This document shows positions 10,857 through 48,516 of a stretch of DNA of 64,000 nucleotides, piece by piece (positions within the stretch are counted from its first letter, which is position 1; the number at the start of each line of letters is the position of its first letter). This DNA comes from Halorarum halobium (GTDB lineage Archaea > Halobacteriota > Halobacteria > Halobacteriales > Haloferacaceae): positions 1 through 64,000 of the forward strand of contig NZ_CP134949.1 of assembly GCF_032116555.1 (NCBI RefSeq), in the 5' to 3' direction. The notes beneath the pieces were generated by a model, which was not told the origin of the DNA, did no database searches, and saw only the letters and a list, made by a program, of their open reading frames with translations. A program made the translations under genes and the position numbers.

Positions 10857-11015
10857 CCTCGAAAGCCCGCGCGGCCCCTTTCACTCCCGCCCACTGCGCC
10901 TCACCCTCCCCAGCCTCCTGTGCGTTACCTCGGAGCAAACTCCTCGGAAGTCACCCTCGCTTCGCTCGCGTGAGCCTCGCACGAGCGGTCTCGCTACGCT
11001 CGATCGCTGCGCGCC
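10857..11015 (-). repeat. Modular structured intergenic element, family A, copy 1
   Basis: Reverse complement carries GGCGCG..., GGCTGGGGAGGG, GGGCGGGAGTGAAAGGGG and GGGCTTTCGAGG, shared with four other copies. Confidence 0.85.
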
Positions 11016-11042
11016 ACGTGGCCCGTGTCAGGTCGTGCGGTC

Positions 11043-11258
11043 GGCGCGTGCCGGCGGGCCTCCGTTCACGCGAGCGAGCCTGCGAGCGAGGGTGATCTCA
11101 CGAGACCACAGGTCTCGGGGAGTGCCCGCCGGGTGCGCGCGAGGGATGAGCGAGTGAAACGAGCGAATCGGCTGGGAGGCGTGTGGCTGTGCGGGGCGGC
11201 GCAGTGGGTGGGACTGAAAGGGGCCGCACCGAGCCGACAGGTGCGGGGGCTTTCGAGG
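11043..11258 (+). repeat. Modular structured intergenic element, family A, copy 2
   Basis: GGCGCG...CGCGCGAGGGATGAGC...GGCTGGGAGG...GGGTGGGACTGAAAGGGGCCGC...GCGGGGGCTTTCGAGG. Back-to-back with copy 1. Confidence 0.85.
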
Positions 11259-11407
11259 CGTTCGATGCGACAACTGAGTCGACACGCATACCAACTGAGT
11301 CGACACACGATCCGAGAACGACCCGCACTACTGAGCAGCCAAACCGACCGCCTCGAATCGCCAGCGGACGCACAAGACATATCGGCCCGTCGCACCACCA
11401 CCCGAAC

Positions 11408-11836
11408 ATGAGTTCGACCGCCGAGGGCGTCGAGGTGGACTTCGGCGACGACGGGCTGGTCCCCGCCGTGGCCCAGGACGCGGACACCGGCGAGGTGCTG
11501 ATGCTCGCCTACGTGGACGAGGAGGCGCTGGCCCGCACGCACGAGACGGGCCGGGCCCACTACCACTCCCGCTCGCGCGACGAGTTGTGGGAGAAGGGAG
11601 CCAGCAGCGGGCACACCCAGGAGGTCCGGGAGGTCCGGGTCGACTGCGACGCCGACACCCTCCTCTATCTCGTCGACCAGACCGGCGGGGCGTGCCACAC
11701 CGGCTACCGCTCCTGTTTCCACCGCACCGTCGACGGCGTCTCCGTGAGCGACGAGAACGGAGGCTCGTCGACCGTAACGGTCGACGTAGACGTCGACGGC
11801 GAACGCGTCTTCGACCCCGAGGATGTCTACGAGTGA
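11408..11836 (+). CDS. hisI: Phosphoribosyl-AMP cyclohydrolase
   Basis: [46 protein letters not shown]. Confidence 0.97.
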
Positions 11837-12995
11837 GACCGCCGCCGGCGACGGCGACGCGGGCGACGCCGAGCGGGCGCTCCGTCGGGCCCGTCGCCGA
11901 CTGCGCGACGCGGAGTCGGCCGTCGCGGAGTACGGCGAGTCCGACCTCGAACGGGTACGGGACGCGCTCGGGACCGCCGAGGGGCTGCTCGACCGGTACG
12001 AGGGCTCCGCGACCGGGACCGGCGACTTCCAGGCGTACGTCGAGTTCCAGGGCGAGTTCGCCGACCTCGTGGAGGGGCTCCCCGACGACCTCCCGGCCCG
12101 CGACGCGTTCGAGGCGGCCAACGACGTCGTCGACCAGCGCCGCCTCTCCGAGTCCGACTTCGCCGGCGCCCGCGAGCGGCTCGCCCCGGCACGCGAACTC
12201 GCCGAACTACTTTCCGACCGCGAGGCGGCCCGGAGCGCGCTCCGCGAGGCCGAACGCGACGCGCAGGCGCGGGTCGCCGACCTCGACGAGCGGGTCGACC
12301 ACCACGAGCGCGTCCTCGACCTCGGCGAGGCGCTGACCGGCGAGGACGCCGACGCGGCGTTCCAGGAGCGGGTCGCCGACCTCCGCGGGACGGTCGAGTC
12401 GTACGACGGGGCGGTGACGGACGCCTTCCGCGAGTACCGCCGGACGGCGAGCGCCCGCGAGTTCCTCGGCTTCGTCGCCGACACCGCGGCGTACCCGCTG
12501 GTCGCGTTCGAGACGCCGCCCGACGAACTGCTCTCGTACGTCGAGTCCCACGCGGTCGGCGAGGAGCCGCTCCCCGACCTGCTGGAGTTCGCCGACTACT
12601 CGACGTCGAAGCTCGGTCACTACGTCGAGAACCCCGGCACCTTCCGGACCCGGGTCCCCGTCCACAGGACGTATCTCGACCGGCTCTCGGCGGACCCCCT
12701 GCTCGTGGACTGGCCCGCCCCGCCGGCCGGCGAACTCGACGCGCTCGCGGGCGAACTCGTCTCGGTCGTCGCCAAGTTCGCCGACGAGGACGTCGTCGCG
12801 TCGGCCCGCGAACTGCGGCGCGCGGCCGCGGCCGACGACTACGACCGACTCCGCCGCGTCGCCCTCGCGGAGTCGGAGCTCACCGACGAGGAGCGACGGA
12901 AGCTCGAAGCGGGCGAGATCGAGGCGGAACTGGACGCCGCCCGCGAGGAGCGCCGACGGCTCCGCGACGCGCTGGCGGAGACGGACGATACCTGA
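11823..12995 (+). CDS. Conserved acidic coiled-coil hypothetical protein
   Basis: Long acidic helical ORF overlapping the hisI end, strong haloarchaeal codon bias. Confidence 0.75.
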
Positions 12996-13028
12996 CGATT
13001 CCCGGCCCGGTCGGCCGGCTCCGGCCCC

Positions 13029-13580
13029 TCACAGCGACTTCTCGTACATCACGGTCGGGTACGCCTCGCCGGCGACCTCGAAGGTCGCCTCGCCCCGGAC
13101 CGTGAACCCGCGCGAGTCGTAGAAGCCGCGGGCGGCGTCGTTGTCGCGGAACGCTTCGAGGACCAGCGCCTCGGCATCGTCCGGAATCCGATCTACCCCC
13201 GCCTCGAGCAGCCGGCTGCCGATCCCCTCGCCCTGCCGGTCGGGGGCGACGTAGACGGCCCGCAGTCCGACCTCGTCGTCGCCGACGAACTGCTTGGTGA
13301 GCGCGGCGTCCAGGACGAACTGGGCGAAGCCGGCGACCCCGAGGGCGTCGGCGTCCCGGGCCGCCGAGCCGTCGTCGGCGCCGCCGACGGCGACGAGGAA
13401 CGTCTGACCCTCCCGCCGCGCGTCGTCGTAGCGCTCGCGGAGTTCCCGCCCCTCCGGGACGGTGAACCCGTCGAGCACCTCGGCCGGCAGGATGTGGCCG
13501 TAGGCGTCGCGCCAGGCGGTGCGGTTGACCGCCATCGCGCCGCGGTACTCCTCGAGCGACGTGACCGGGCGGACCTCCAT
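13029..13580 (-). CDS. GNAT family N-acetyltransferase
   Basis: AVYVAPDRQGEGIGSRLL motif A, N..ARGFY..RGF. Confidence 0.9.
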   Translation of the reverse strand: MEVRPVTSLEEYRGAMAVNRTAWRDAYGHILPAEVLDGFTVPEGRELRERYDDARREGQTFLVAVGGADDGSAARDADALGVAGFAQFVLDAALTKQFVGDDEVGLRAVYVAPDRQGEGIGSRLLEAGVDRIPDDAEALVLEAFRDNDAARGFYDSRGFTVRGEATFEVAGEAYPTVMYEKSL

Positions 13581-13712
13581 GGTCGCGGGTCGCGCCCCGC
13601 CGTGAAAAATCGGGGCGGCGTGACAGATCGGAACGGGATGACGGGTCGGAGCCGAGTGACGGGTCGGGAGCGGGCCGACGGACCGCCCCTGCCGCCCCCG
13701 GCCGCCTCGATC

Positions 13713-14414
13713 TCAGCCGACGTACTGCATCAGGAACCGGGGGATGATGACGAACGCGTAGAGGTCGTTGATCGCGTGGGCGAGGATGCACGCCCCGAGG
13801 TTGCGCCGCCAGACGTACAGCAGCGTCAGGAGGAGCGCGTTGACCCCGATCTGGAGCGTCCCGCCGACGCCCCAGAACGGGAGGTGGACCGCGGTGAACA
13901 CGAGGAACGTGAGGCCCGCGCCGACCCAGACGCTCCCGGTCAGTTCGGCCAGCCGCTCGATCGGGTAGCCGCGGTAGAGCACCTCCTCGGTCACCGCGGC
14001 GGTGAGCGACAGCGCGATCAGGAGGGCGACCGGGAGGCGAGCGAGCGTCTCGATGCCGGAGACCGTGGTTTCGAACCCGAGCGCTGCCAGTAGCGGCGTC
14101 GTGACCACGTAGCTCGCGGCGCCGAGCACGAAGACGAGCACGGCCGCGGCGACGTCGCGCCAGCCGAGCCCACCGAGCCCGATGGAGTCGAGCCCCCGAC
14201 CCTCCCAGTACAGCACGAGGGCGACGAGCAGCCCGGTCACGAACCACTTCACGCCGAGGTCGTTCACGACGAGTTGCCTGAACTCGCCGCCCGGCAGCAC
14301 CGCCGAGCCGAGCGCCTGCAGGACCGAGAGGCCACAGAGCGCGATCACGAGCCCGACGAGGGTTGCGGCGTCGGTATCGATCGATTCGAGGCTGAACGTC
14401 GACTGTTCTGCCAT
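13713..14414 (-). CDS. CPBP (CAAX/Abi) family intramembrane metalloprotease
   Basis: EEVLYRG, FTAVH, HAIND motifs. Confidence 0.9.
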   Translation of the reverse strand: MAEQSTFSLESIDTDAATLVGLVIALCGLSVLQALGSAVLPGGEFRQLVVNDLGVKWFVTGLLVALVLYWEGRGLDSIGLGGLGWRDVAAAVLVFVLGAASYVVTTPLLAALGFETTVSGIETLARLPVALLIALSLTAAVTEEVLYRGYPIERLAELTGSVWVGAGLTFLVFTAVHLPFWGVGGTLQIGVNALLLTLLYVWRRNLGACILAHAINDLYAFVIIPRFLMQYVG

Positions 14415-14543
14415 ACGCGCTCGTCGCCCGGCGACGACATCGACCCTCGGGCCGGACTGTCGAACCGACAGGTCGTGAGAAGGTTTATTGCGGGCCGTCC
14501 GCCGGAAGCGCCCGGTACGGCCGATACTGCCCCGAGTTCCGTG

Positions 14544-15905
14544 TTAGCGCGCCGCCTCGAGCGTCCGTCGCACGTCCGCGGCCAGTTCCTCGGCGCGGTC
14601 GGGTTCGCGGCCCTCCGCGTAGATCCGGACCTTCGGCTCCGTGCCCGACGGGCGCACGAGCACCCAGGCGTCGCCGTAGTCGAGGCGGTAGCCGTCGATG
14701 GTGCTCGGCGTGGCGTCGGCGTCCGCGGCGTACGCTTCGGCGGCCGCGAGCATCGCGTCGAGTTCGCGGTCGTCCTCGTAGGCGAGGTTGAGCCGGACGT
14801 TGTGGTAGTCGCCGTACGGCGCGACGACCTCGCTGACCGGCTCGCGGCGCTCGGCGAGCAGTTCGAGGAACTTCGCGCCGATGAACGCGCCGTCCCGGAC
14901 CAGCCGGTACTCCGGGAAGAAGACGCCGCCGTTGCCCTCGCCGGCGACGGGGACCGACTCGCCCGCGTCCCACAGTTCGCGGATGCGGGTGATGATGTTC
15001 GTCGAGCCGATGGGGGTGAGCTCCAGCGTCGCGCCCGCCTCCTCGCAGACGTCGACGAGGCGCTGGGAGACGTTCACGGCCGCGACGGTCGTGTCGCCGA
15101 CCGAGAGCCCCCGGGCCGCCAGCGCCGCGAGCGAGGCGTCGCCCTCGACGTACGCGCCCGTCTCGTCGTAGAAGATGGCGCGGTCCGCGTCGCCGTCGTG
15201 GGCGATGCCGACGTCAGCGTCCGCCGCGCGCACGAGGCGGCCGAGGTCGCCCAGGTTCGCCTCGACGGGTTCGGGCTGGCGGCCGGGGAAGTGGCCGTCC
15301 GCCTGCGCGTTGACCGTGACGACCTCACAGCCGAGTTCGCGGAAGAAGTCGGGGGAGGTGAGCGCCCCCGCGCCGTGGCCGGGGTCGAGCGCGACCGTCA
15401 GGCCGGCGGCCGCGACGGCGTCGCGGTCGACCGCGGCGAGCATGTCGTCGACGTACGCCTCGTTGGCGTGGGTGACCGCGGTCGTCTCGCCGACCTCGTC
15501 CCACGCCGCGTCGTGGAACGAGTCGGCCAAAAGCGCCTCCTCGATGCGTTCGAGCCGGTCGACCGGGAGTTCGATCCCCTCGTCACCGACGAGCTTCACG
15601 CCGTTGTACTCCGGGGGGTTGTGCGAGGCCGTGATGAGCACGCCCGGAACGGCCTCCTCCTCGCAGTAGCGGACCGCCGCCGGCGTGGGCGTGACGCCCA
15701 GCCGCGCCACGTCGACGCCGGCGCTGGCGATCCCCGCGGCGGCCGCGTCCGCGAACATCCCGCCCGTCGTGCGGGTGTCGCGGCCGAGCGCCACCCGGTC
15801 GGCCTCCCAGACGGTCGCGGCGGCCTTCGCCACGCGCAGGACGAACGCGGGGGTGAGCTCCTCGCCCGCGACGCCGCGGGTCCCGCTGGAGCCGAAGATC
15901 TTCAT
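14544..15905 (-). CDS. glmM: Phosphoglucosamine mutase / phosphohexomutase
   Basis: FGSSGTRG, TASHNP active-site Ser, DGDADR metal loop, GEGNGG, RPSGTEPKVR. Confidence 0.9.
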   Translation of the reverse strand: MKIFGSSGTRGVAGEELTPAFVLRVAKAAATVWEADRVALGRDTRTTGGMFADAAAAGIASAGVDVARLGVTPTPAAVRYCEEEAVPGVLITASHNPPEYNGVKLVGDEGIELPVDRLERIEEALLADSFHDAAWDEVGETTAVTHANEAYVDDMLAAVDRDAVAAAGLTVALDPGHGAGALTSPDFFRELGCEVVTVNAQADGHFPGRQPEPVEANLGDLGRLVRAADADVGIAHDGDADRAIFYDETGAYVEGDASLAALAARGLSVGDTTVAAVNVSQRLVDVCEEAGATLELTPIGSTNIITRIRELWDAGESVPVAGEGNGGVFFPEYRLVRDGAFIGAKFLELLAERREPVSEVVAPYGDYHNVRLNLAYEDDRELDAMLAAAEAYAADADATPSTIDGYRLDYGDAWVLVRPSGTEPKVRIYAEGREPDRAEELAADVRRTLEAAR

Positions 15906-15974
15906 TCGTGTCGGCTTCGGCCCGGTGGCGGCATAGTGGTTCCGAACGACGGTCGCCCGGATCGACTCGCGCCG

Positions 15975-16301
15975 TCAGTCGCCGGACGGGTCCGACGGTG
16001 ATCCGACCGTGATCTCGCCGTCGCTCCCGACCATCACGTCGACCCCGGCGTAGGTGAAGGAGACGCGGACGGTCGTCCCGCCGTCGTCCTCGACGCCCGT
16101 GAGGAGGCTGTTCAGGGCGTCGACGTCGATGCACTCCTGTAACAGCGGGACGGCCGTGGGGTCGCGGTCGGTGGCCTCCGCGACGGCCTCGATCAGGCCG
16201 ATGCTCGGCTTACCGCTCCCGTCCCAGACGGCTCGAACTCGGTCGTCCTCCCCCACGATTCCCGATCGTTCCACGTTCGACTCGTTCTCTTTTTCAGTCA
16301 T
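15975..16301 (-). CDS. HalOD1 (halobacterial output domain) protein
   Basis: S..LIEAVA...DP....L...IDVDAL..L...VSFTYAG..V.V..DG.I.V pattern. Confidence 0.8.
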   Translation of the reverse strand: MTEKENESNVERSGIVGEDDRVRAVWDGSGKPSIGLIEAVAEATDRDPTAVPLLQECIDVDALNSLLTGVEDDGGTTVRVSFTYAGVDVMVGSDGEITVGSPSDPSGD

Positions 16302-16740
16302 TCTGGAGGGTCGCTCCGAACGGCGCTGGTCCCCCGGCGATCCCCGCTCCCCGGCAGTCGTCCGCGCTTGGATTCAGCCCGGGGCATGGTACAATATACC
16401 ACGGCCGGGTAAATGTCTTTTGTGGCGGGTCTCGAAACCATTCCCCACGCGATACGGCAAATACCGGGCCGTTTTCGGAGGAATGAAATCCGCGCGTTCG
16501 GCGTTCACGATCCGGTGCCGGTCACCGTTCTGCCCCGTTCGAACCGCCTCAAACTCGTTCGGTCCCCTCGGACTCCCCGGGCTCGTTCCGATCGCCTTCG
16601 GACTCCATCGGACCCGTTTCGGCTCCGGCCGCGCGCGCTCGCCGGGTGGAGCGGCCGGGCTCCCGTCCGGCCGGCAGGGCGACGGCGCGTGAAACCACGG
16701 GACCTAAGACCCAGCACGGAGAGCACCACCAACACCACCG

Positions 16741-17331
16741 ATGCCGCGGTTCGCGTACCCCTGCCCGGGCTGTCGCACCACGAACAGCCTGCACGACGCC
16801 GCCTGCGACCACGAGGGGACCGCCTGGACCCGCGTGGAGAAGGCGTACACCGACCTGCTCGCGGTGCTGGTGCGCGATGCCATCACGGAGGACGCGCTCC
16901 GCCACGCGGTCCACGGCGAGTGGTCGGCGCTCCACAACGCGGCGCTGGACCTGCTCGTCCGCGAGGGTCGGGTCCAGGAGACCGACGCGGGCCTCCGCCT
17001 GCTGACCGCCGAGGAGTACCGCGAGGCGGTCTCCGAGCCGCGGAGCGAGCCGATGGCGACGCTGTACCGACAGGGGAGCTACCCCGGCGCGCACGACAAC
17101 GCCGTGTTCGCCATGATCGCCTGGTACGAGATGGTCGGCCTGTCGTGGGAGGAGACTCGCGAGCACACCGTCGAGTGGCTGGAGGAGTCGGGCACCTGGG
17201 CCCGCGGCGGGTTCGAGGAGGCCTCCCCCGCGGCGCTCGTCGACAAGAAACGTCACGTGTACGAGGCCGGCTACGGCTGGAAGGAGAAGGCCCGCGCGGC
17301 AAAGCGCGTCATCGAGGCCCACCGGGGCTGA
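16741..17331 (+). CDS. Hypothetical protein with N-terminal CPxC..H..C zinc-binding motif
   Basis: YPCPGC...LH..C, central helix-turn-helix/wing-like stretch, helical C-terminal domain. Confidence 0.75.
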   Translation: MPRFAYPCPGCRTTNSLHDAACDHEGTAWTRVEKAYTDLLAVLVRDAITEDALRHAVHGEWSALHNAALDLLVREGRVQETDAGLRLLTAEEYREAVSEPRSEPMATLYRQGSYPGAHDNAVFAMIAWYEMVGLSWEETREHTVEWLEESGTWARGGFEEASPAALVDKKRHVYEAGYGWKEKARAAKRVIEAHRG

Positions 17332-17373
17332 GACTGACACAACCCTAAGTCCGCCGCCGCCGAAGGGGCCGAC

Positions 17374-18693
17374 GTGTCGCTCACGCGCTCGGCCACCGTC
17401 GCCGACGCCGAGCCCTCGCCGCCCGCCGGCTCCCGCCGCGCGGTCGCGGTGGTCGTCGGCGTCGTGTTCCTCGACCTGCTCGGCTTCGGCGTCGTCATCC
17501 CGGTCCTCCCCTTTTACGTGCGCTCGTTCGGCGTCAGCGACGTGTTCATCGGCCTGCTCGCGGCCTCCTACTCGCTCGCGCAGTTCCTCGCCGCGCCGAC
17601 GCTCGGCCGCATCTCCGACCAGTACGGCCGCCGGCCGGTGATCATGGCCTCGGTCGCGACGGCGGCCGTCGCGTGGACCGTGTTCGGCCTCGCCGCGGAG
17701 GTTGGAACGCTCGCGGGCACTGCCGCGGCCGTGGCGACGCTGTTCGTCTCGCGGACGCTCGCGGGGGCGGCCGGCGGCAACATCGCCGCCGCGCAGGCGT
17801 ACGTCGCCGACGTGACGCCCGAGGACCGCCGTGCCGGCGCGCTGGGACTGGTCGGGGCGGCGTTCGCGCTGGGGTTCGTCTTCGGCCCGGCCATCGGCGG
17901 CCTCGCCGCGAGCGACGGCGTCGTCGCGGCGGCGGACGCCGCGCTCCCGGCGTTCGTCCCGACGACGCGGTTCTCGCTGCCGAGCTTCGTCGCGGCCGGC
18001 CTGTCGCTGGTCGCGCTCGTCGCCGCCGCGCTCGTCCTGAAGGAGCCGGACCGGGAGCGCCGTCCGGCCCCGCGGCGGTCGCTGCTCGACTCGTTCCGGG
18101 ACGCGCTGGCGGACGCGACGCTCCGGCCGCTGGTGGTCGCGTTCTTCCTCGCCTCGGTCGCGTTCGCGGGCATCCAGGTGATGTTCATCCCGTTCGCGGC
18201 GGACTTCTACGGCTACGGCGCGACGGAGGCGGCGCTGTTTCTCACGTACATCGGCGTGCTCGGCACGGTGAACCAGGGCGTGCTCGTGGGGAAACTGGAG
18301 CGGCGCTACGGCGCGGCGCCGCTGGCGGTCGCCGGCGGGGTGTCACTCGCAACCGCGCTGGCACTCCTGCCGTTCACGCCGGCGGTCGGGAGCCTGCTCC
18401 CCGCGCCCGCCGGGCCGGCGTGGCTCGACGGCCCGCTCCTGGCGCTGCTCGCGGACGGCGCGCTGCTCTCGTTCGGCAACGGCGCGTTCACGGTGTCGCT
18501 CACGACGCTCGTCTCCCGCGCCGCGAGCGAGGAGACGCAGGGGGCCGCGTTCGGGGTGACGCAGGGCGCCGGGAGCCTCGGTCGGACGGTGGGACCGCCG
18601 GTCGCCGCCGCCGCCTACGTCGCGGCCTACTGGTCGCCGTTCGTCGCCGGCGCCGTGGTGCTCGTACCGGCGCTGTTTCTTCTTCGACGGTGA
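17374..18693 (+). CDS. MFS transporter (TetA/DHA1-like)
   Basis: D.LGFGVVIPVLP, motif A GRISDQYGRRPV, motif C GFVFGPAIGG, about 12 TM helices. Confidence 0.92.
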   Translation: MSLTRSATVADAEPSPPAGSRRAVAVVVGVVFLDLLGFGVVIPVLPFYVRSFGVSDVFIGLLAASYSLAQFLAAPTLGRISDQYGRRPVIMASVATAAVAWTVFGLAAEVGTLAGTAAAVATLFVSRTLAGAAGGNIAAAQAYVADVTPEDRRAGALGLVGAAFALGFVFGPAIGGLAASDGVVAAADAALPAFVPTTRFSLPSFVAAGLSLVALVAAALVLKEPDRERRPAPRRSLLDSFRDALADATLRPLVVAFFLASVAFAGIQVMFIPFAADFYGYGATEAALFLTYIGVLGTVNQGVLVGKLERRYGAAPLAVAGGVSLATALALLPFTPAVGSLLPAPAGPAWLDGPLLALLADGALLSFGNGAFTVSLTTLVSRAASEETQGAAFGVTQGAGSLGRTVGPPVAAAAYVAAYWSPFVAGAVVLVPALFLLRR

Positions 18694-18722
18694 GGGAGTT
18701 GCGATGAGGGATTCAGCCGGGT

Positions 18723-18993
18723 GGCGCGCGTGACGGCGAGCCCCGCAGGGGCGAGCGGACGCGCGCGAGGGACGAGCACCGCAGGCTCGCGAACGCGGTG
18801 AGCGAGCCGAGGAGCACAGGAGGCTGGGGAGGCTGAGGTGCTGTGCGGTGGCGGGGCGGTCTGGGTGGGACTGAAAGGGGCCGCGGCTGTCGGCGAACCC
18901 CGGCGCCTCAAGCACCGCAGGGAGCGAACGAAGTGAGCGACCGAGGAGCACAGAGCGTGCCGCGGGAGCCGACAGCCGCGGGGGCTTTCGAGG
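18723..18993 (+). repeat. Modular structured intergenic element, family A, copy 3
   Basis: All conserved linkers present. 18727-18772 is an exact 46-bp inverted match to 23702-23747. Confidence 0.9.
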
Positions 18994-19108
18994 TGCTCCT
19001 CGCTGAACCCGAACGGGCGACGAGTGCGAAACGTCGAGAATCAAGCCACGCGGCGAATTTCGAGAACAGTCCCCACGAACCTCGACGAACGCCGGAGTCG
19101 AGTGATCC

Positions 19109-19726: not shown

Positions 19727-19783
19727 GCGAACTGGCGGGCCGGCGCGGTGAAAAGGGTGCCGTGAGCGGGGGACGCGGTCGGC

Positions 19784-23527: not shown

Positions 23528-23751
23528 CCTCGAAAGCCCCCGCGGCCCCTTTCAGTCCCACCCACCGCAACCGCACCGCCCCGCACCTCACCCTCCCCAG
23601 CCTCTTGCGCTTCTCGCTCCCTGCGGTCGCTGTCGTTCGAAAGGCGCTTCGCGCCTTTCGTGATGACGAGACGCCGCTGGCGTCTCGAACCACGATGCTC
23701 ATCCCTCGCGCGCGTCCGCTCGCCCCTGCGGGGCTCGCCGTCACGCGGGTC
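23528..23751 (-). repeat. Modular structured intergenic element, family A, copy 4
   Basis: Reverse complement GGGTGGGACTGAAAGGGGCCGCGGGGGCTTTCGAGG. Exact 46-bp match to copy 3. Confidence 0.9.
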
Positions 23752-38900: not shown

Positions 38901-39052
38901 GGGGCCCCGTACGGCCGCCAGCATGAAGAGAGTAGGAGTCGGTCGACGCGTGGTCGGGGCTCGGCCTCGTCGGGTCGGAGCTCAAGTGGCGTCGAACGTG
39001 TGAGAAGATGGCCGCAGCGTCGTCGGTCGTCGCAGAAACCGGACGTCGCCGA

Positions 39053-40781: not shown

Positions 40782-40886
40782 ACCGTCACTGTCGGCCGGG
40801 ACGAAATAAGTCCCACGTCCGGCGGGTGACTCGGGGGCGGGGCCGGTTCGAAACCCCGGTCCGGTCGCCGGACCTCGTCGGGACCG

Positions 40887-41579: not shown

Positions 41580-41689
41580 CCGAAACGGTCGGGCGACCTG
41601 ACAGTAAATCGCTTCGACCCGGCTATCGAGCGCTGATACTCGCGTGCCGCCACGACAGCGTTTAAGCCGTGAAGCGAGTAGAACGGGAC

Positions 41690-42556
41690 ATGGAATGGAA
41701 GACTGACTGGGGGTTACGTGGACGCATGGTCTTCACGATGTTCCTCCTGTTCGCCCTCTACATCGTCTTCGCGGCGGTGCTCTCACAGACGAGGTACGTC
41801 GGGTTCCTGGTGCTCATGGTGCCGTTCCTGCTCGCGCAGTTCTTCTTCAGCGACAGGCTCGCGCTGTACTCGATGGGGGCCAAGGAGGTGAGCGAGGAGG
41901 AGTACCCCGACCTGCACCGGAAGATCACGCGGCTGAGCCAGCAGGCCGACCTGCCGAAGCCGAAGGTCGCCGTGTCCGACGCCCGGACGCCGAACGCGTT
42001 CGCCGCCGGGCGCTCACAGAAGAAGGCGACGGTCTGTGTGACGACCGGACTCCTGCGGACGCTCGACGACGAGGAGCTGGAGGGCGTGCTCGCTCACGAA
42101 CTCGCGCACGTGAAGAACCGCGACGTGATGGTGATGACCATCGCCTCGTTCCTCTCGACCATCGCGTTCATGGTCGTCCGCTGGGGGGCGTTCTTCGGCG
42201 GCGGGCGGAACCGAAACGGCGGCGGCGTGCTCGTCGCCATCGCCGCCTCGCTGGTCGTCTGGATCGTCTCGTTCATCCTCATCCGGGCGCTCTCGCGCTA
42301 CCGCGAGTTCGCCGCGGACCGCGGCGGGGCGGCCATCACGGGCAAGCCGGGCGCGCTCGCCTCGGCGCTTTTGACCATCGACGGCCGGATGGACAAGGTC
42401 CCGGACGACGACCTGCGCGAGACCTCCGAGATGAACGCCTTCTTCATCATCCCGCTCAAGAGCGGCGTCGTCGGGAAGCTGTTCTCGACCCACCCGAGCA
42501 CCGAGAAGCGCGTGGACCGGCTGCGCGACCTGGAGCGGGAACTGGAGACGGTCTGA
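41690..42556 (+). CDS. htpX: Zinc metalloprotease HtpX (M48)
   Basis: PNAFA.G, AHELAH, SRYREF.AD, FSTHP...R. Confidence 0.95.
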   Translation: MEWKTDWGLRGRMVFTMFLLFALYIVFAAVLSQTRYVGFLVLMVPFLLAQFFFSDRLALYSMGAKEVSEEEYPDLHRKITRLSQQADLPKPKVAVSDARTPNAFAAGRSQKKATVCVTTGLLRTLDDEELEGVLAHELAHVKNRDVMVMTIASFLSTIAFMVVRWGAFFGGGRNRNGGGVLVAIAASLVVWIVSFILIRALSRYREFAADRGGAAITGKPGALASALLTIDGRMDKVPDDDLRETSEMNAFFIIPLKSGVVGKLFSTHPSTEKRVDRLRDLERELETV

Positions 42557-42744
42557 TTCGTCTCGGGTTCCGGGACGTGCACTGATTCTTCGGAGACGGT
42601 GAGCAGGATTTCGACGGCCAGGAACGCCTCGATGGCCGCGGGGGCTTCCGCGGTCTGCACCACGATGCCGTCGCATTCTGTTCGACACACTGTATCCAAT
42701 ACCACGAACCAACGCTTATACCCGGAGTTTCCCTACCCCGAAAC

Positions 42745-43740
42745 ATGTTCCCGCTCCAGTCGAGCGACATCGCGCTCACGCTCGAAACCGCGCTGCTCGG
42801 GGTCGTCGTGGCGCTGTTGCTCGTCGTCACCGTGCTCCTGTTGCGGCTCTGGGCATCCGTCCGGGGAATCGACGACGACGAGATCGAGGTCGACTCGGAC
42901 GCGCTCACCGCCGCGGTCAGTCGCACGTTCACCGACCTGGAGTTCGCCGAGAAGGTCGACCGCATCGAGACGCACGCCGACAGCATGCAGAACCTCCACG
43001 CCGACCTGGACAGCATGCTCCGTGACCCCCGCGAGCGCGGCGCGTTCGGGGAGGAACAGCTCGACGTGCTGCTCTCCGAACACCTGCCCCCGGAGATGTA
43101 CGGCCTGCGCGAACAGGTCGTCGACGGGAAGACGCCCGACGCCCACATCCGCTCCTCCTCGGGGCTCATCTGCGTCGACGCGAAGTTCCCGCTGGACAAC
43201 TACGAGCGCGCCGTCGCGGCCGAGGACGAGGCCGAGGCGGCCCGCCACCGCGACGCGTTCGCGGGCGACGTGCGGTCACAGCTCCGGAAGATCGCCGACG
43301 ACTACGTCCGACCCGCCGCGGGCACGACCGACTTCGCGTTCGCCTTTCTCCCCTCCGAGAGCGTCTACTACCACCTCGTCACCGAGGAGTACGACATGCT
43401 CCGCGAGTTCACGAGCGAGGGCGTGCAGGTCGTCTCGCCGCTGACGTTCGGCCACAAGCTCGAGCTCATCAAGGCCGACGTGCAGGCCAGACAGCTCTCC
43501 GAGGAGGCCGAGGCCGTCGCCGAGCAGCTCGACGGGCTCCGGGAGTCGTTCGCCGCCGTCGAGGACGAGTGGGGCGTCCTCCGGACCCACGTCCGCAACG
43601 CCGCGAACAAGGCCGACGACGTCGACCGGCGGTACCGCAGGCTCCGCGAGGAGTTCGACCGCGTGGACAGTCCGAGCCTGGCGGACGAGAGCGACGCGAG
43701 CCCCGCGGTCGGGATCAGCACCGACGGGGAGGGGAACTGA
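42745..43740 (+). CDS. rmuC: DNA recombination protein RmuC family
   Basis: N-terminal TM helix, RG.FGE..L, PD...VDAKFP, I..DYV.P..TTDFA..FLPSES.Y, VVSP.T, coiled-coil C-terminus. Confidence 0.9.
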   Translation: MFPLQSSDIALTLETALLGVVVALLLVVTVLLLRLWASVRGIDDDEIEVDSDALTAAVSRTFTDLEFAEKVDRIETHADSMQNLHADLDSMLRDPRERGAFGEEQLDVLLSEHLPPEMYGLREQVVDGKTPDAHIRSSSGLICVDAKFPLDNYERAVAAEDEAEAARHRDAFAGDVRSQLRKIADDYVRPAAGTTDFAFAFLPSESVYYHLVTEEYDMLREFTSEGVQVVSPLTFGHKLELIKADVQARQLSEEAEAVAEQLDGLRESFAAVEDEWGVLRTHVRNAANKADDVDRRYRRLREEFDRVDSPSLADESDASPAVGISTDGEGN

Positions 43741-44351
43741 TGGGGCTGTTCGACTCCGTGAAGGCGGCGCTGGGCATCCACGCCGAGTCCGACGCGACGC
43801 GCGAGGCCTACCCCGAGGACCTGTTCGGGATGAGCACCGCCTACGTGACGATGGAGGCCGACCTCGGCTTCCGGCCGGTCGGCGAGGCCGCGCTCTGCTT
43901 CTCCTCGGTCGACTCGACCGACTTCGCCGGGGCGGTCGAGGAGGTCGAGGAGATCCTCCACGCCGGGAGCGAGGAGACGGGCACCGAGTTCCGGCTCCAC
44001 GAGGACGACCACGGCTATCACTGGGTCGTACTCGCCGACGACGACCCCGAGGACCTGGTCACCTCGATCCACTTCGCCGCGGACACGTTCGTCGAGCGCG
44101 GCTACGGTTCGCGGCTCCTCGCCGCGGTGTTCGGGTTCGAACGGGAGGACGCCCCCGACGAGCGGGGCTACTGGGTGTACTCGTTCCGCCGCGGCGCGTA
44201 CTACCCGTTCGCGCCGACGAACGGCGAGCACGACAAGCGCATCGAGGGGAAACTCGAGTCGGTGCTCGACGGCGAACTCGACCTCGAACCCGAGAAGGAG
44301 TACTGGTACCCGCTCTGGCCGGACGGCCCCGGGAACCACCCCTGGGGGTGA
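43740..44351 (+). CDS. pspAB: PspA-associated protein PspAB
   Basis: MGLFD, LFGMSTAY.TM, EDLVT, GYG.RLL.AVF, YSFRRG.YYPFAP, WYPLW. Confidence 0.8.
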   Translation: MGLFDSVKAALGIHAESDATREAYPEDLFGMSTAYVTMEADLGFRPVGEAALCFSSVDSTDFAGAVEEVEEILHAGSEETGTEFRLHEDDHGYHWVVLADDDPEDLVTSIHFAADTFVERGYGSRLLAAVFGFEREDAPDERGYWVYSFRRGAYYPFAPTNGEHDKRIEGKLESVLDGELDLEPEKEYWYPLWPDGPGNHPWG

Positions 44352-44366
44352 GCCGCACCGTCGGCC

Positions 44367-44744
44367 GTGCCGAACGCTTTTGCCCCGGAGCCTGAATTCC
44401 CGCACGTGATCCCCGACACGAAGTCCCTCGTCGCCACGGTCGGCCTCGTGACGGTCGTGCTCTCGGAGTGGCCGCTCGGCGACGAGTCGCCGGCGTATCT
44501 GGCGATCCTCGGCGGGCTCGCCCTGCTCATCCTCGTGCTGACGGTCCGAACTGACCTCCGCGACACGCGCGCCGCGGGCGTCGCAGTCGGCGGGCTCGCG
44601 ACGCTTCTGGGCGGCTTCCACCTCGCGTTCGGGCGCGGACTCCCCGACGTCGCCTTCGGCGGCGTCATCGCCGGCTTCGGCCTCCTCGTGCTGGCGAACA
44701 AGCTCGGACTGGCACCGTGGTCCGACGAGGACCCGGTCGTCTGA
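44367..44744 (+). CDS. Hypothetical membrane protein
   Basis: Four hydrophobic helices. Start uncertain (44367 or 44406). Confidence 0.6.
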   Translation: MPNAFAPEPEFPHVIPDTKSLVATVGLVTVVLSEWPLGDESPAYLAILGGLALLILVLTVRTDLRDTRAAGVAVGGLATLLGGFHLAFGRGLPDVAFGGVIAGFGLLVLANKLGLAPWSDEDPVV

Positions 44745-44834
44745 GCCGCCGGCCGTCGCGGCTTCCCACCTAAACGTTCTCGGATCCGACAGAACCGTCC
44801 CGTCGCCTGCTCGCATTTTCACTTCCACTTCTCT

Positions 44835-44855
44835 GTTAACGGGGGTTTATGTACG
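44835..44855 (+). promoter_or_regulatory. Putative TATA box of radA
   Basis: TTTATGTA about 26-33 nt upstream of ATG 44879, consistent with a leaderless transcript. Confidence 0.5.
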
Positions 44856-44878
44856 GAGCCGCACAAGCCGGAATCACG

Positions 44879-45910
44879 ATGGCAGAAGACGACCTCGAAA
44901 GCCTTCCCGGCGTGGGGCCGGCGACGGCGGACAAACTCGTGGACGCGGGCTTCGAAAGCTACCAGAGCATCGCGGTCGCCAGTCCGAGCGAACTGGGCAA
45001 CACCGCCGACATCGGCGACTCGACCGCCAACGACGTCATCCAGGGCGCGCGTGAGGCCGCCGACGTCGGCGGCTTCGAGTCCGGCGCGCAGGTGCTCGAA
45101 CGCCGCCAGCAGATCGGGAAGCTCTCCTGGCTCATCCCGGAGGTCGACGAGATGCTCGACGGCGGGCTCGAGACGCAGTCGATCACCGAGGTGTACGGCG
45201 AGTTCGGCGCCGGCAAGTCCCAGGTCACCCACCAGATGGCCGTAAACGTCCAGCTCCCGAAGGAGTACGGCGGCCTGGAGGGAAGCTGTATCTTCATCGA
45301 CTCCGAGGACACGTTCCGCCCCGAGCGCATCGACGACATGGTGCGCGGGCTGGACGACGAGATCATCGAGGCGCTGCTCGAGGACCGCGAGATCGAGGGT
45401 GCCCCCGGCGACGACGAGGCGATGGAGGCGCTGCTCGAGGACGTACTCGACAAGATCCACGTCGCCAAGGCGTTCAACTCCAACCACCAGATCCTCCTCG
45501 CGGAGAAGGCCAAGGAGGTCGCCAGCGAGCACGAGGACGACGAGTTCCCGGTCCGCCTGCTCTGTGTCGACTCGCTCACGGCCCACTTCCGCGCGGAGTA
45601 CGTCGGCCGCGGACAGCTCGCCGACCGCCAGCAGAAGCTGAACAAGCACCTCCACGACCTGATGCGCGTGGGCGACCTCTACAACTCGGTCGTGCTCGTG
45701 ACGAACCAGGTCGCCTCGAACCCGGACTCCTACTTCGGCGACCCGACCCAGCCCATCGGCGGCAACATCCTGGGCCACACCTCCACGTTCCGGATGTACC
45801 TCCGCAAGTCGAAGGGCGACAAGCGCATCGTGAAGCTCGTCGACGCGCCGAACCTGGCCGACGGCGAGTCGATCATGCGCGTCCAGGACGCGGGGCTCAA
45901 GCCCGAGTAG
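44879..45910 (+). CDS. radA: DNA repair and recombination protein RadA
   Basis: Hh[14 protein letters not shown], Walker [31 protein letters not shown]. Confidence 0.98.
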
Positions 45911-46042
45911 TCGGCAACGCCCCCGGATTCGTCCGCGACACGCGCCCCGTTTTTCCCCTTCCGATCTCACCCCCGAGCGACGGCGTCGCTGCTGGACGTG
46001 GTTTCGGGAGGAAACCGCCACCCGGCCGAACCCGCGAGTGCC

Positions 46043-46471
46043 TCAGTCCTCGGTCTTCGTCACGTCGAGGTCCTCGAGCTCGCCCTCGTACAGCTTCGCG
46101 CCGTCCTGGGCGATCTGTCTGGCGAGCACGGCGCACTTGATTCGCATCGGGGAGATGTCGACGCCGAGCATCTCGGTGACGTCGTCGGTGTCCAGTTCCG
46201 CCAGTTCCGCGAGGCTCATCCCGTGGAGCCGTTCGGAGAGCATCGACGCCGACGCCTGCGAGATGGCACAGCCATCGCCCGAGAACGCGACGCCCTCGAT
46301 GGTCTCCCCGTCCTCGGCCAGTTTCACGTCGACCGTGATGGTGTCGCCACAGGAGGGGTTCTCCCCAGTGTGCGAGAACGTCGGGTCCTCGAGCTCGCCG
46401 TAGTTCCGGGGGTTCTTGTAGTGGTCCAGGATCTGCTGGCGATACATGTCCGAGCCGCCGCCGATTCCCAT
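46043..46471 (-). CDS. sufU: Fe-S cluster assembly sulfur-transfer/scaffold protein (SufU/IscU-like)
   Basis: YRQQILDHYKNPRN, NPSCGD, GCAISQAS, RIKCA. Confidence 0.92.
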   Translation of the reverse strand: MGIGGGSDMYRQQILDHYKNPRNYGELEDPTFSHTGENPSCGDTITVDVKLAEDGETIEGVAFSGDGCAISQASASMLSERLHGMSLAELAELDTDDVTEMLGVDISPMRIKCAVLARQIAQDGAKLYEGELEDLDVTKTED

Positions 46472-46523
46472 TGTTGTCGGTAGTTGGCGAGTCGACCCGA
46501 AAAGCCTACCGCCCCACCTGTTG

Positions 46524-46616
46524 GAGCGAGCGGCTCTTTTCGTCCGACATTTTCGAGAAGCGGTGAGGGAAACGCGAGCGGAGCGAGCGCGAGGGCACCC
46601 GACGATGAAAGATTTA
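46524..46616 (+). repeat. Structured intergenic element, family B-like, abutting the sufS stop
   Basis: CTTTTCGTCCGACATTTT..., CGC-GA-GC-GGA-GC-GA-GCG hairpin, ...CCCGACGATGAAAG. Confidence 0.5.
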
Positions 46617-47894
46617 GGCGAACAGCTCCCGCGCGTCGTCGACCGCCTCGACCAGTTTGTCGACCTCCTCGCGCGTGTTGTAGACGTAGAAGCTCGCGCG
46701 GGCCGAGGCCGCCGTGCCGAGCACGTCGTGGAGCGGCTGGGTACAGTGGTCGCCGGCGCGGATGGCGACGCCGTGGTCGTTGAGGATGCTCGAGAGGTCG
46801 TGGGCGTGGACGCCGTCGACGTTGAACGAGACGAGGCCGGCGCGCTCGTCGCCCGGCGGCCCGTAGATCTCGACGTCCTCGGGCTCGGTGAGCCGGTCGT
46901 ACGCGTACTCCGTGAGCTGTGACTCGTACTCGTGGACGTTCTCCATGCCGATCCCCTCGAGGTAGTCGATGGCGGCGGTGAGCGCGATGCCCTGCTCGAT
47001 GACCGGCGTGCCGGCCTCGAACTTCCAGGGCAGGTCCTCCCACTCGGTCTCCTCGAAGGTGACCTTGCGGATCATGTCGCCACCGTAGAGGTACGGCTCC
47101 ATCCCCTCCAGGATCTCCTCCTTGCCGTACAGCACGCCGATGCCCGTCGGGCCGAGCATCTTGTGGCCCGAGAAGGCGAGGAAGTCGCAGTCGAGTTCCT
47201 TCACGTCGACCGGCCGGTGGGGAACCGACTGGGCGGCGTCGAGGAAGATGTACGCGCCGTTGTCGTGGGCGATGTCGGCCAGTTCCGCGACGGGGTTGAC
47301 GGTCCCGAGCGTGTTCGAGGAGTGGACGACCGAGACGAGCTTCGTGTCCTCGTCGATGAGTTCGCGGGCGTGGTCCATGTCGAGGCGGCCGTCGTCGGTG
47401 ATGCGGACGAACCGCGCCTCCGCGCCGGTCTTCCGGGCGGTCTGCTGCCACGTGACGAGCGAGGCGTGGTGCTCCATCTGGGTGAGCACGACGTTGTCGC
47501 CCGGGCCGAGTTCGTTCAGCCCCCAGGCGTACGCGACGAGGTTCTCGGCCTCGGTGGCGTTCTTGGTGAAGACGACCTCCTCGCGGCCGGCCGCGCCGAT
47601 GAACTCCGCGACCCGGTCGTGGGCGTTCTCGTAGGCGACGCTGGCCTCCTGGCTCAACTGGTGGATGCCGCGGTGGACGTTCGCGTTGTACGAGCGGTAG
47701 TAGTCGGCGATGGCGTCGACGACCTGGTCGGGCGTCTGGCTCGTCGCGGCGCTGTCGAGGTAGACGAGCGGCGTCGTGTCGCCCTCGTCCTCCCCGGGAA
47801 CGGTGGCGTCGCCGCCCACCTTCCGGTCGAGGATGGGGAAGTCCGCCCTGACGGCCTCGACGTCGAGGGGGGACGGTTCCTGTGTGGGTTCCAT
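46614..47894 (-). CDS. sufS: Cysteine desulfurase SufS
   Basis: YLDSAAT, NVHRG, EHHAS, DAAQ, SGHKM (PLP Lys), FEAGT, RAGDHC. Confidence 0.95.
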   Translation of the reverse strand: MEPTQEPSPLDVEAVRADFPILDRKVGGDATVPGEDEGDTTPLVYLDSAATSQTPDQVVDAIADYYRSYNANVHRGIHQLSQEASVAYENAHDRVAEFIGAAGREEVVFTKNATEAENLVAYAWGLNELGPGDNVVLTQMEHHASLVTWQQTARKTGAEARFVRITDDGRLDMDHARELIDEDTKLVSVVHSSNTLGTVNPVAELADIAHDNGAYIFLDAAQSVPHRPVDVKELDCDFLAFSGHKMLGPTGIGVLYGKEEILEGMEPYLYGGDMIRKVTFEETEWEDLPWKFEAGTPVIEQGIALTAAIDYLEGIGMENVHEYESQLTEYAYDRLTEPEDVEIYGPPGDERAGLVSFNVDGVHAHDLSSILNDHGVAIRAGDHCTQPLHDVLGTAASARASFYVYNTREEVDKLVEAVDDARELFA

Positions 47895-47987
47895 TGTCGG
47901 GGACAGGGGTTGGAGGGCTAACATCCCTTCGGTCCTGCCGGCCGGGCGAAATCGGTTCCCCTTACGTTGCCGGAGGAACGTCGGGAA

Positions 47988-48206
47988 TCATCCCTCCGTC
48001 TCCCCGTCCAGCCCCTCCTCGTCGACCTCCACGAGAAAGCCCGTGACGTACGAGAGCAGCGCGTAGAGGCCGAGCGCGACGACGACGAGCGCGCCGAAGC
48101 CGACGACGGGGGCCTGCGCGATGAGGTAGAACGACGCGAGGAGGAGGAGCAGCGCGAACATGCCGAGGAGGGCGTCGATGCGGACGAGCAGGTCGGTGTC
48201 GGCCAT
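47988..48206 (-). CDS. Small two-TM membrane protein
   Basis: ATG 48206, two TM helices, acidic tail. Confidence 0.6.
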   Translation of the reverse strand: MADTDLLVRIDALLGMFALLLLLASFYLIAQAPVVGFGALVVVALGLYALLSYVTGFLVEVDEEGLDGETEG

Positions 48207-48284
48207 GACTTTTTCGAGGGTACGTCGGACCAAAAGAATGCGGGCCGTTTCCGGTGGGGCGACGGTTCCGGGGGAGCGTCGTCA

Positions 48285-48516
48285 GGCGCGCGGCGGCCGC
48301 GCGGAGCGCGGCCGCTCGTGCGAGGGACGAGCATCGCAGGCCGAAGGCCGAGGAGCGCAGGAGGCTGGGGAGGGCGAGGTGCGGTGGGTGGGACTGAAAG
48401 GGGTCGGCTGGGTACGCGAACCCCGGACCCGCAAGCACCGCAGGGCGCGAACGGAGTGAGCGACTGAGGAGCGCAGCGTGGTCCGCGGGAGCGTACCCAG
48501 CGGGGGGCTTTCGAGG
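48285..48516 (+). repeat. Modular structured intergenic element, family A, copy 5
   Basis: All conserved linkers present. Hairpin 3 covaries with copy 3. Confidence 0.9.

What the first reader, a model, noticed from the sequence alone, without database searches (positions are those of the whole stretch)
10857..48516. Dispersed family of modular intergenic elements with fixed linkers and interchangeable, covarying hairpins
Seen: five copies at 10857-11015(-), 11043-11258(+), 18723-18993(+), 23528-23751(-) and 48285-48516(+), plus a remnant near 55.9 kb. Shared architecture: GGCGCG-[hairpin 1]-CGYGCGAGG(GAYGAGC)-[hairpin 2]-GGCTGGG(G)AGG-[G/T-rich spacer]-GGGYGGGASTGAAAGGGG-[hairpin 3]-GGGCTTTCGAGG. 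Hairpin sequences and lengths differ but pairing is kept. Hairpin 3 is CCGCGGCTGTCGGC/GCCGACAGCCGCGG (18881-18894/18968-18981) in copy 3, GCTGGGTACGC/GCGTACCCAGC (48407-48417/48491-48501) in copy 5, CCGCACC/GGTGCGG in copy 2, and collapsed in copies 1 and 4. An inner stem also covaries (GGCGC-CTC..GAG-C-GTGCC vs GGACC-CGC..GCG-T-GGTCC). Sub-modules such as AGCACCGCAGG-[stem]-GAGGAGC recur in different slots, and copies 3 and 4 share an exact 46-bp block. Orientation does not follow the flanking genes, and I see no terminal inverted repeats, target duplications or transposase. Inference: a structure-selected non-coding element (REP/BIME-like non-autonomous DNA element or a large structured ncRNA family) that standard gene annotation would miss. 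I cannot tell whether it has already been catalogued.
Basis: partly seen in the sequence, partly recalled or inferred. Interest (0 to 1): 0.85.

Follow-up and report, generated by a model that had tools for sequence, protein, structure and literature searches.

The report
Haloarchaeal repeats sharing plasmid single-strand hairpin
The five look-alike stretches are real copies of a hairpin repeat found about 130 times between the genes of this salt-loving archaeon, and the same core also sits just upstream of the single-stranded-DNA-binding gene on many haloarchaeal plasmids, where it likely folds as single-stranded DNA and is predicted to help start copying or expressing an incoming plasmid strand.

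Summary
Confirmed. The five copies belong to a family with about 130 intergenic loci in this genome. A covariance model finds it in 13 of 14 same-order genomes and 0 of 107 others. The ~110-nt core covaries (18 of 21 pairs), has almost wobble-free stems and GNA triloops on one strand, which points to folded single-stranded DNA. Rfam has no match.

The main new result: the same core ends a conserved 550-700-nt folded leader upstream of the plasmid SSB/RPA-like gene of haloarchaeal type-IV-secretion plasmids. It lies on that gene's template strand in 26 of 37 loci, against 0 of 37 downstream. This is the layout of bacterial Frpo/ssi single-strand signals.

The chromosomal copies behave like REPINs: head-to-head doublets, gains and losses between species, modules reshuffled. 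No mobilising enzyme was found, and neither the direction of origin nor any function is shown.

The scan probably met this repeat family before on other DNA (e1-7935764, e1-2324566).

The parts
10857..11015 (-). Copy 1: full modular element, hairpin 3 collapsed; left member of a head-to-head doublet
   Evidence: core 10858-10891 scored by model R1
10925..10973 (-). Nested double-hairpin mini-insert in copy 1 (boundaries approximate)
   Evidence: sequence; these insert motifs cluster at cores genome-wide
11016..11042 (.). 27-bp spacer joining copies 1 and 2 at their 5' ends
   Evidence: same junction type in other doublets
11043..11258 (+). Copy 2: full element, hairpin 3 partly deleted; right member of the doublet
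   Evidence: core 11207-11257
11065..11121 (+). Nested double-hairpin mini-insert in hairpin 1 of copy 2 (boundaries approximate)
   Evidence: sequence
18723..18993 (+). Copy 3: complete element (5' hairpin 1, linker, hairpin 2, G/T spacer, intact core)
18864..18992 (+). Conserved core of copy 3: GAAAG/CTTTC stem, G-rich internal loop, variable 12-bp stem, inner stem, AAGCAC..GAGGAGC motif, GNA mini-hairpin; homologous to the plasmid ssb-leader core
   Evidence: 88 bits with R1; alignment A1 with plasmid cores
18727..18772 (+). 46-bp block shared exactly with copy 4 (23702-23747, -)
23528..23751 (-). Copy 4: hairpin 3 collapsed to CCGCGG; the orthologous gap holds a different variant in G151 and a remnant at most in G152
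23633..23692 (-). Nested cruciform mini-insert with short terminal inverted repeats in hairpin 2 of copy 4
   Evidence: sequence; motif M2, 26 of 43 matches within 450 bp of a core
48285..48516 (+). Copy 5: complete element, intact core 48387-48514
55910..55936 (-). Remnant: 3' end and tail only
   Evidence: sequence; not scored by R1

Best explanation
The repeats are dispersed copies of a ~110-nt hairpin core that also sits upstream of the ssb gene on haloarchaeal type-IV-secretion plasmids, likely folds on single-stranded DNA, is predicted to act there as an Frpo/ssi-like start signal for priming or transcribing an incoming strand, and likely escaped to spread through chromosomes as a non-autonomous REPIN-like element. 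SHOWN: the core is shared; it lies on the template strand at the far end of a conserved 550-700-nt leader; the backbone order is VirB6-VirB3-VirB4-VirD4, primase, leader, ssb, TFB, DUF6735, ArdC-like; chromosomal copies come as singles and head-to-head doublets, differ between species, and are remodelled by deletion between stem arms, exchange at the shared AGCAC..GAGGAGC sub-module, inversion and nested mini-inserts. INFERRED: folding as DNA rather than RNA; transfer of these plasmids as a single strand; recognition by the plasmid primase (my preferred reader) or host RNA polymerase; plasmid-to-chromosome direction; spread through a single-stranded intermediate by an enzyme not identified.
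For: Core upstream of the ssb-like gene on the template strand in 31 of 42 loci, 26 of 37 when the five loci found through the core are left out, against 0 of 37 downstream; leader in 33 of 37; leader-like DNA in 171 plasmid records, the 60 listed all haloarchaeal; one core subtype has the leader beside it in 69 of 80 metagenome loci examined. Mean pairwise identity over 26 loci: core 0.82, leader 0.77, spacer 0.53, ssb four-fold sites 0.49. Backbone genes; PMC13532300 section 17 lists SSB, TFIIB, ArdC-like and T4SS as core of 132 such plasmids. The 674-aa gene after VirD4 is probably an AEP primase: conserved DxD motif, AEP primases and prim-pols fill the top fold matches though none reaches E 0.001. 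DNA-type folding: 615 of 648 stem pairs Watson-Crick, 9 G-T; GNA triloops 105 of 209 on the G-rich strand, 8 of 121 on the other strand, 9 of 108 shuffled; 5 GNRA and 0 UUCG among 61 tetraloops; CC-GNA-GG in 16 of 26 plasmid cores. Frpo2 lies upstream of ssb in F (PMC9849209); RSF1010 ssiA carries such a mini-hairpin (PMC13037366). REPIN-like behaviour.
Against: No function was tested. Folding energy does not pick the template strand: leader -210.6 (template) against -216.6 (coding); consensus folds split by parameter set; core z-scores slightly favour the C-rich strand, and wobble counts barely differ between strands (9 G-T against 5 A-C; 77 against 68). GNA triloops are only 20 of 91 in the plasmid leaders. 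11-12 of 37 ssb loci lack the core, so it is dispensable or often lost. The 37 loci are the best hits to two queries and are related. Carrying the ssb gene does not track repeat number (14 of 28 high-copy against 64 of 122 other genomes, by a 12-mer count that misses some subtypes). Dispersed cores avoid low-GC islands (1 of 100 in 13% of bins). The tree is unrooted and poorly resolved, with 3 label changes, so direction is not shown. No relaxase or oriT was identified, and all these plasmids are typed non-mobilizable. No homology to the F leading region. A TATA-like stretch in the leader stem is present in only some variants (by eye).
Confidence: 0.5

Rival explanations
1. The family is an autonomous-partner-dependent selfish repeat (REP/REPIN type) of chromosomal origin. 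One copy landed next to the ssb leader of an ancestral plasmid and was kept, co-opted or refreshed by gene conversion; it is a passenger, not the signal.
For: Core separable from the leader: absent at 11-12 of 37 loci, with a poorly conserved spacer between them. Plasmid-position cores fall in more than one place among dispersed ones. Copies are widespread on core chromosomes and independent of ssb carriage. Over-represented inverted doublets.
Against: Plasmid cores are far more conserved than neutral sites of the adjacent gene (0.82 against 0.49), always on the same strand and side, and one subtype is nearly confined to the leader (69 of 80). No Y1, IS110 or DUF559 partner was found.
Confidence: 0.25
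2. The element works as RNA: a structured ncRNA or UTR module (stability, processing, protein binding), copied around by recombination.
For: Strong covariation (18 of 21 pairs); RNA folding z about -4; the first small hairpin beside the ssb start has a GNRA loop on the mRNA strand in 26 of 28 loci, so part of the leader probably folds as RNA.
Against: Stems nearly free of G-U; GNA triloops rather than GNRA or UUCG tetraloops. No orientation bias to neighbours and no enrichment in convergent gaps. No Rfam match.
Confidence: 0.12
3. The core is the transfer origin (nick site) of these plasmids for an unrecognised relaxase; chromosomal copies are oriT mimics left by one-ended transfer and integration, and could mobilise host DNA.
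For: Single copy at a fixed place between the T4SS-primase block and the ssb-ArdC block. No known relaxase typed for these plasmids. Fading rather than sharp ends, and one pair of copies shares 44 nt of 3' flank.
Against: About 30% of ssb loci lack the core. With the G-rich strand transferred, the tra genes would enter first, unlike F (inference). No nick site or relaxase was identified.
Confidence: 0.08
4. The family is already catalogued as a haloarchaeal PATE, SMR or MITE (IS605- or IS6-related) under another name.
For: PATEs lack terminal inverted repeats, have heterogeneous ends and are invaded by short repeats (PMC3119063 passages), as here. That paper's sequence tables could not be read, and ISfinder was not available.
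Against: No core next to 7 Y1-transposase loci; cores in the pHV4 stretch lie away from its TnpB and IS110 genes except through interruption of the leader; no Y1 gene in four high-copy genomes.
Confidence: 0.05

Closest known systems
Frpo/ssi single-strand promoters and initiation signals (F Frpo1/Frpo2, ColIb-P9 ssi; PMC9849209 and PMC11541004, passages read)
   Same: Long folded non-coding DNA directly upstream of a plasmid ssb gene, on the template strand, in a backbone with T4SS and ArdC-like genes.
   Different: Archaeal; no sequence or model match to F; no bacterial -35/-10 role possible; no activity shown; a sub-module is also a high-copy chromosomal repeat.
ssiA/ssiB of RSF1010 read by the RepB' primase (PMC13037366 section 4.2 read; opposite-strand arrangement recalled)
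   Same: GNA mini-hairpin in a signal carried with a plasmid-encoded primase; head-to-head doublets would give signals on opposite strands.
   Different: Core is ~110 nt with several internal loops; primase recognition untested; the primase gene lies kilobases away and comes in at least two types.
REP/BIME and REPIN-RAYT systems (PMC3116915, abstract read)
   Same: Extragenic, high copy, over-represented inverted doublets, gains and losses between relatives, no cargo gene.
   Different: Much longer and multi-stem; no RAYT/Y1 gene in four high-copy genomes; ends fade; shares its core with a plasmid leader.
PATEs and SMR-A repeats of Haloquadratum walsbyi (PMC3119063, passages read; supplements unreadable)
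   Same: Haloarchaeal transposase-free palindromic repeats with heterogeneous ends, invaded by short inverted-repeat elements without target duplication.
   Different: No link to IS605 ends found here; sequence identity to the named HqIRS families could not be tested.
pHdsl9-3-like plasmid family (PMC13532300) and the Rfa5/Rfa6 / HVO_A0019-type SSBs (PMC5924565)
   Same: The plasmid backbone and the single-OB-fold SSB that carry the leader.
   Different: In the passages read, neither paper mentions the upstream folded leader or the repeat (no 'hairpin', 'non-coding' or 'oriT' in PMC13532300).

Membership tests
REP/REPIN-RAYT | Extragenic, multi-copy palindromic repeats | tested here: met
   133 HMM loci, 0 inside strong gene calls
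REP/REPIN-RAYT | Over-represented inverted doublets | tested here: met
   11 head-to-head, 0 tail-to-tail, 0 tandem among 102; 3.0 same-gap pairs of any orientation expected, maximum 9 in 2000 draws
REP/REPIN-RAYT | Y1 tyrosine transposase (RAYT) flanked by the repeats | tested here: not met
   No PF01797 in G000, G032, G106, G088; 0 of 7 Y1 loci from G136 and G056 have a core within 1.5 kb
Frpo/ssi single-strand signal | Lies upstream of ssb or other establishment genes on the template strand | tested here: met
   26 of 37 loci, all template strand; 0 of 37 downstream
Frpo/ssi single-strand signal | Long conserved stem-loop that folds on that strand | tested here: inconclusive
   Conserved nested hairpin of about 250 nt, z -5.0, but the opposite strand folds as well, z -6.7
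Frpo/ssi single-strand signal | Sequence homology to F Frpo or its flank | tested here: not met
   No significant HMM or covariance-model match in 20 kb of F
Frpo/ssi single-strand signal | Located in the leading region next to a mapped oriT | not testable with these tools
   No relaxase or oriT typed for these plasmids
Frpo/ssi single-strand signal | Drives RNA or primer synthesis from single-stranded DNA | not testable with these tools
   Needs biochemistry
PATE / IS200-IS605 derivative | Near-terminal palindromes similar to IS605-type ends | tested here: not met
   No core at 7 Y1 loci or at the pHV4 TnpB gene ends; small sample
PATE / IS200-IS605 derivative | Identity to a named HqIRS family | not testable with these tools
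   Supplementary tables unreadable
MITE | Terminal inverted repeats and target-site duplication | tested here: inconclusive
   Single copies have no terminal inverted repeats and fading ends; no close enough empty site to read a duplication. IS6-family carriage was not tested
Rfam structured RNA | Match to a curated covariance model | tested here: not met
   0 at gathering score in the window; only weak unrelated hits for copy 3 and the plasmid leader

The most novel reading that the evidence does not exclude
Haloarchaeal T4SS plasmids transfer as single strands and carry an archaeal counterpart of Frpo/ssi, read by their own AEP primase. Its priming core has become a selfish mini-origin: head-to-head doublets prime on both strands and amplify themselves without any transposase, seeding tens to more than a hundred priming sites on haloarchaeal chromosomes.
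Probability: 0.15. Interest if true: 0.9.

Novelty: new variant of a known kind. Interest (0 to 1): 0.62.

Why it matters
It ties an unannotated high-copy repeat of Halobacteria to a conserved plasmid locus, and so gives both a testable function. If the leader is a single-strand signal, it is evidence that the widespread haloarchaeal T4SS plasmids, which have no recognised relaxase, move as single strands, and it would be an archaeal analogue of Frpo/ssi, which I did not find in the papers searched. It would also be a case of a REP-like family arising from a plasmid signal, not from a transposon end. The backbone occurs in Haloferax volcanii and other genetically tractable hosts, so the tests are direct.

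Tried and rejected
Mobiliser next to the repeats: the flanking genes of 111 copies look like ordinary chromosomal genes by eye. Y1 absent from 4 high-copy genomes; IS110 and DUF559 absent from 5 of 5 genomes tested; TnpB and GIY-YIG present in high- and low-copy genomes alike, and the small GIY-YIG gene sits among housekeeping genes with a core within 3 kb in 2 of 5 genomes. IS6, IS91, HNH and reverse transcriptase were not tested. Low-copy 12-mer hits as a 'master locus': about 6 of 30 were real elements, the rest chance, so the tally of 124 of 151 overstates presence. Viruses: 33 + 5 pattern hits in IMG/VR, none resembling the element; no phage match. Empty-versus-filled sites: congeners at about 85% identity are too far to read a target site. 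RNA evidence: only contigs from other organisms, no strand or ends. Homology to the F-plasmid Frpo flank: not supported (one search was saturated by enterobacterial hits). G-quadruplex: four G-tracts in this genome's subtype, but the plasmid type-A core keeps only two, so not pursued. Single-sequence fold of the SSB-like protein was poor (pLDDT 53) and was not used. Sequence searches of solved structures for the 674-aa protein found nothing relevant. Literature searches without a description of the element.
Full report
1. THE OBSERVATION. The stated stem arms are exact reverse complements and the 46-bp block shared by copies 3 and 4 is exact. In the 3.68-Mb genome the four linkers occur 64, 83, 95 and 86 times, against 0, 0, 21 and 10 in one order-4 Markov simulation. 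A fuzzy anchor search gave 137 hits; 102 have both core anchors, and 45 of these also have both 5' linkers. Profile HMMs give 133 merged loci, none inside a strong gene call (gene calls are my own). Orientation to neighbours is mixed (33/29/27/14), with no excess in convergent gaps. Rfam has no match. The host is a haloarchaeon, inferred from acidic proteins and from the named plasmid hits.

2. ANATOMY. The conserved part is a ~110-nt core at the 3' end of the G-rich strand: a five-pair stem (GAAAG/CTTTC in 68 of 102, GGAAG/CTTCC in 16, GAACG/CGTTC in 2), a G-rich internal loop, a variable 12-pair stem, an inner stem, and an AAGCAC..GAGGAGC motif capped by a small hairpin. In 51 cores from the window, plasmids and other genera, 18 of 21 consensus pairs show changes on both sides; related sequences inflate such counts. 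The variable stem is almost purely Watson-Crick (615 of 648 positions, 9 G-T, 5 A-C; 54 cores). In 55 full elements 105 of 209 triloops on the G-rich strand are GNA, mostly C-G closed and often stacked on tandem G-A, against 8 of 121 on the other strand and 9 of 108 after shuffling; 5 of 61 tetraloops are GNRA and none is UUCG. GCGNAGC-type mini-hairpins are far more stable as DNA than as RNA (PMC13037366, passages and section 4.2). I infer folding as single-stranded DNA on the G-rich strand. Against: energies and z-scores do not separate the strands.

3. WHERE THE MODULARITY COMES FROM. (a) 25 of 102 cores are collapsed, 20 of them to CCGCGG, the hexamer that begins and ends the variable stem; slippage across the hairpin base is inferred. 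(b) Chimeras join the 5' module to the 3' half of the core at the shared AGCAC..GAGGAGC sub-module, and some copies have the interior inverted or both ends alike. (c) Short double-hairpin inserts sit inside the stems: six motifs fall within 450 bp of a core in 32/38, 26/43, 12/18, 17/24, 34/59 and 17/19 cases, where about 3.4% of the genome qualifies. They resemble the SMR-A repeats that invade palindromes in Haloquadratum (PMC3119063, passages). (d) Eleven pairs are head-to-head, none tail-to-tail or tandem; 3.0 same-gap pairs of any orientation are expected. Other genera carry minimal core-to-core doublets around a ~30-bp spacer. (e) Orthologous gaps in two congeners are empty, hold another variant, or hold a copy in the opposite orientation. 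Ends fade; one pair shares 126 nt of element and 44 nt of 3' flank. Only 1 of 100 chromosomal cores lies in the low-GC islands (43 of 333 bins).

4. RANGE. Copy number runs from 0-3 to more than 80. It was not found in phages or viral contigs.

5. THE PLASMID LINK. Copy 3 hit 28 plasmid records; all those named are haloarchaeal and most have one place. In 5 of 6 inspected, a ~290-aa 'DNA-binding protein' gene starts 450-550 bp away; in the sixth, H. volcanii pHV4, insertion sequences separate the core from a homologue 54% identical to the query. The protein has a C-terminal OB fold and matches replication-factor-A models weakly. By size and location it is probably the Rfa5/Rfa6 / HVO_A0019 type of PMC5924565 (passages and Table 1); that identification is inferred. 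Starting from the protein, 78 of 150 class genomes have it. Of 37 loci taken that way (the 30 best, one of them this genome's own, and 7 of the 9; two short fragments left out), 26 have the core upstream, all on the template strand, and none downstream; 33 have the leader. Both intact copies of the gene in this genome (C2:78207 and C1:2748693) have leader and core. The leader matches 171 plasmid records. One core subtype has the leader beside it in 69 of the 80 metagenome loci examined, of at least 120 found. Over 26 loci the core (0.82) and leader (0.77) are much more conserved than the spacer (0.53) or the gene's four-fold sites (0.49). The leader holds small hairpins next to the start codon, the first with a GNRA loop on the mRNA strand in 26 of 28 loci, then a nested hairpin of about 250 nt, then a spacer and the core. 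In three plasmids the order is VirB6, VirB3, VirB4, VirD4, primase, leader, ssb, with TFB-like, DUF6735 and ArdC-like genes on the same strand nearby. In this genome's plasmid the 674-aa gene after VirD4 is probably an AEP primase (no fold match reached E 0.001). PMC13532300 (section 17 and passages) describes this plasmid family and reads the SSB as a replication gene; it does not mention the leader.

6. MECHANISM. In F, Frpo2 lies upstream of ssb, folds on the incoming strand and drives early expression (PMC9849209, passages); SSB and anti-defence genes of leading regions are oriented for expression from the transferred strand (PMC11541004, passages). The haloarchaeal leader has the same geometry. 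I commit to this reading: the leader with its core is a single-strand start signal, most likely read by the plasmid primase, and the chromosomal repeats are escaped, REPIN-like derivatives (0.5). Shown: shared core, position, strand, conservation, gene context, repeat dynamics. Inferred: DNA folding, single-strand transfer, the reader protein, the direction of origin, the route of spread. Against it: strand not resolved by energy; core missing at about 30% of loci; no correlation of ssb carriage with repeat number (14 of 28 against 64 of 122); an unresolved tree with 3 label changes; no relaxase or oriT known; no homology to F. The main rival is the reverse: a chromosomal selfish repeat that settled beside the leader (0.25).

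7. MOBILISER. Not found. No Y1 transposase in this genome or in G032, G106 and G088, no IS110 or DUF559 in 5 genomes, and TnpB and GIY-YIG do not separate high-copy from low-copy genomes. It therefore works like a REPIN but fails RAYT membership (PMC3116915, abstract only).

8. NOVELTY. Nine literature searches gave no description of the repeat or the leader; subscription papers, ISfinder and the Haloquadratum supplements were out of reach, so an HqIRS name cannot be excluded. Earlier notes of this scan describe what is probably the same repeat family in other haloarchaea with spread and function unknown (their sequences are not shown, and a sequence look-up found nothing). Look-ups for the plasmid link returned only bacterial cases or an unrelated site. 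Verdict: a real, undescribed variant of known kinds (REP/REPIN and Frpo/ssi), joined by a shared core. Interest 0.62.

Noticed in passing
G000 genome-wide; window 10925-10973, 11065-11121, 23633-23692: At least six kinds of 50-90-bp double-hairpin or cruciform mini-inserts, some with short terminal inverted repeats and no evident target duplication, sit preferentially inside these elements. They look like SMR-A repeats and may be a family of their own.
   Followed up: partly
L174:10130-10320 (F plasmid, template strand beyond the Frpo upstream of ssb): A GAAAC-GG ... GG-GTTTC-GCGTC arrangement echoes the closing stem of the haloarchaeal core, but HMM and covariance model give no match. Possibly convergent or chance.
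   Followed up: partly
L099:16170-16207 (just upstream of the plasmid ssb start): The first small hairpin has a GNRA tetraloop on the mRNA strand in 26 of 28 loci, and no TATA box is visible 25-30 bp upstream of the start codon by eye; suggests a structured mRNA leader.
   Followed up: partly
L099:5041-9408 (G000 C2:67040-71407): The VirD4-like protein is 1455 aa, with a long uncharacterised C-terminal part ending in a weak winged-helix-like match; a candidate place for the missing relaxase function.
   Followed up: no
L099:9448-11472 (G000 C2:71447-73471): 674-aa probable AEP primase with a zinc-binding-like domain and a long coiled coil; in other plasmids a 'DNA primase' plus 'primase-associated protein' pair takes this slot.
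   Followed up: partly
L142:12597-20833 (H. volcanii pHV4): Two cores (types A and B), and IS110 and TnpB elements inserted between the type-B core and the ssb leader: a natural disruption in the laboratory strain.
   Followed up: partly
G000 C1:2690000-2760000 and 2860000-2980000: Two low-GC islands with remnants of the same plasmid backbone, including partial leaders at 2938127 and 2974348 and a broken ssb-like gene.
   Followed up: partly
L147-L166 doublet spacers; 5' flanks of G000 copies: A CARCCG-like word recurs just 5' of both short and long elements (13 of 20 spacers) and often forms an imperfect palindrome at the doublet centre; a candidate joining or cutting site.
   Followed up: partly
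window 10735-11408 against G151 and G152: The doublet lies at a synteny break: the two flanking genes are 19-29 kb apart in both congeners.
   Followed up: no
L184, L185 (G010, G004): In two low-copy genomes the single core sits in near-identical context beside a Cdc6-like reading frame and AT-rich DNA, suggesting a second mobile-element setting.
   Followed up: no
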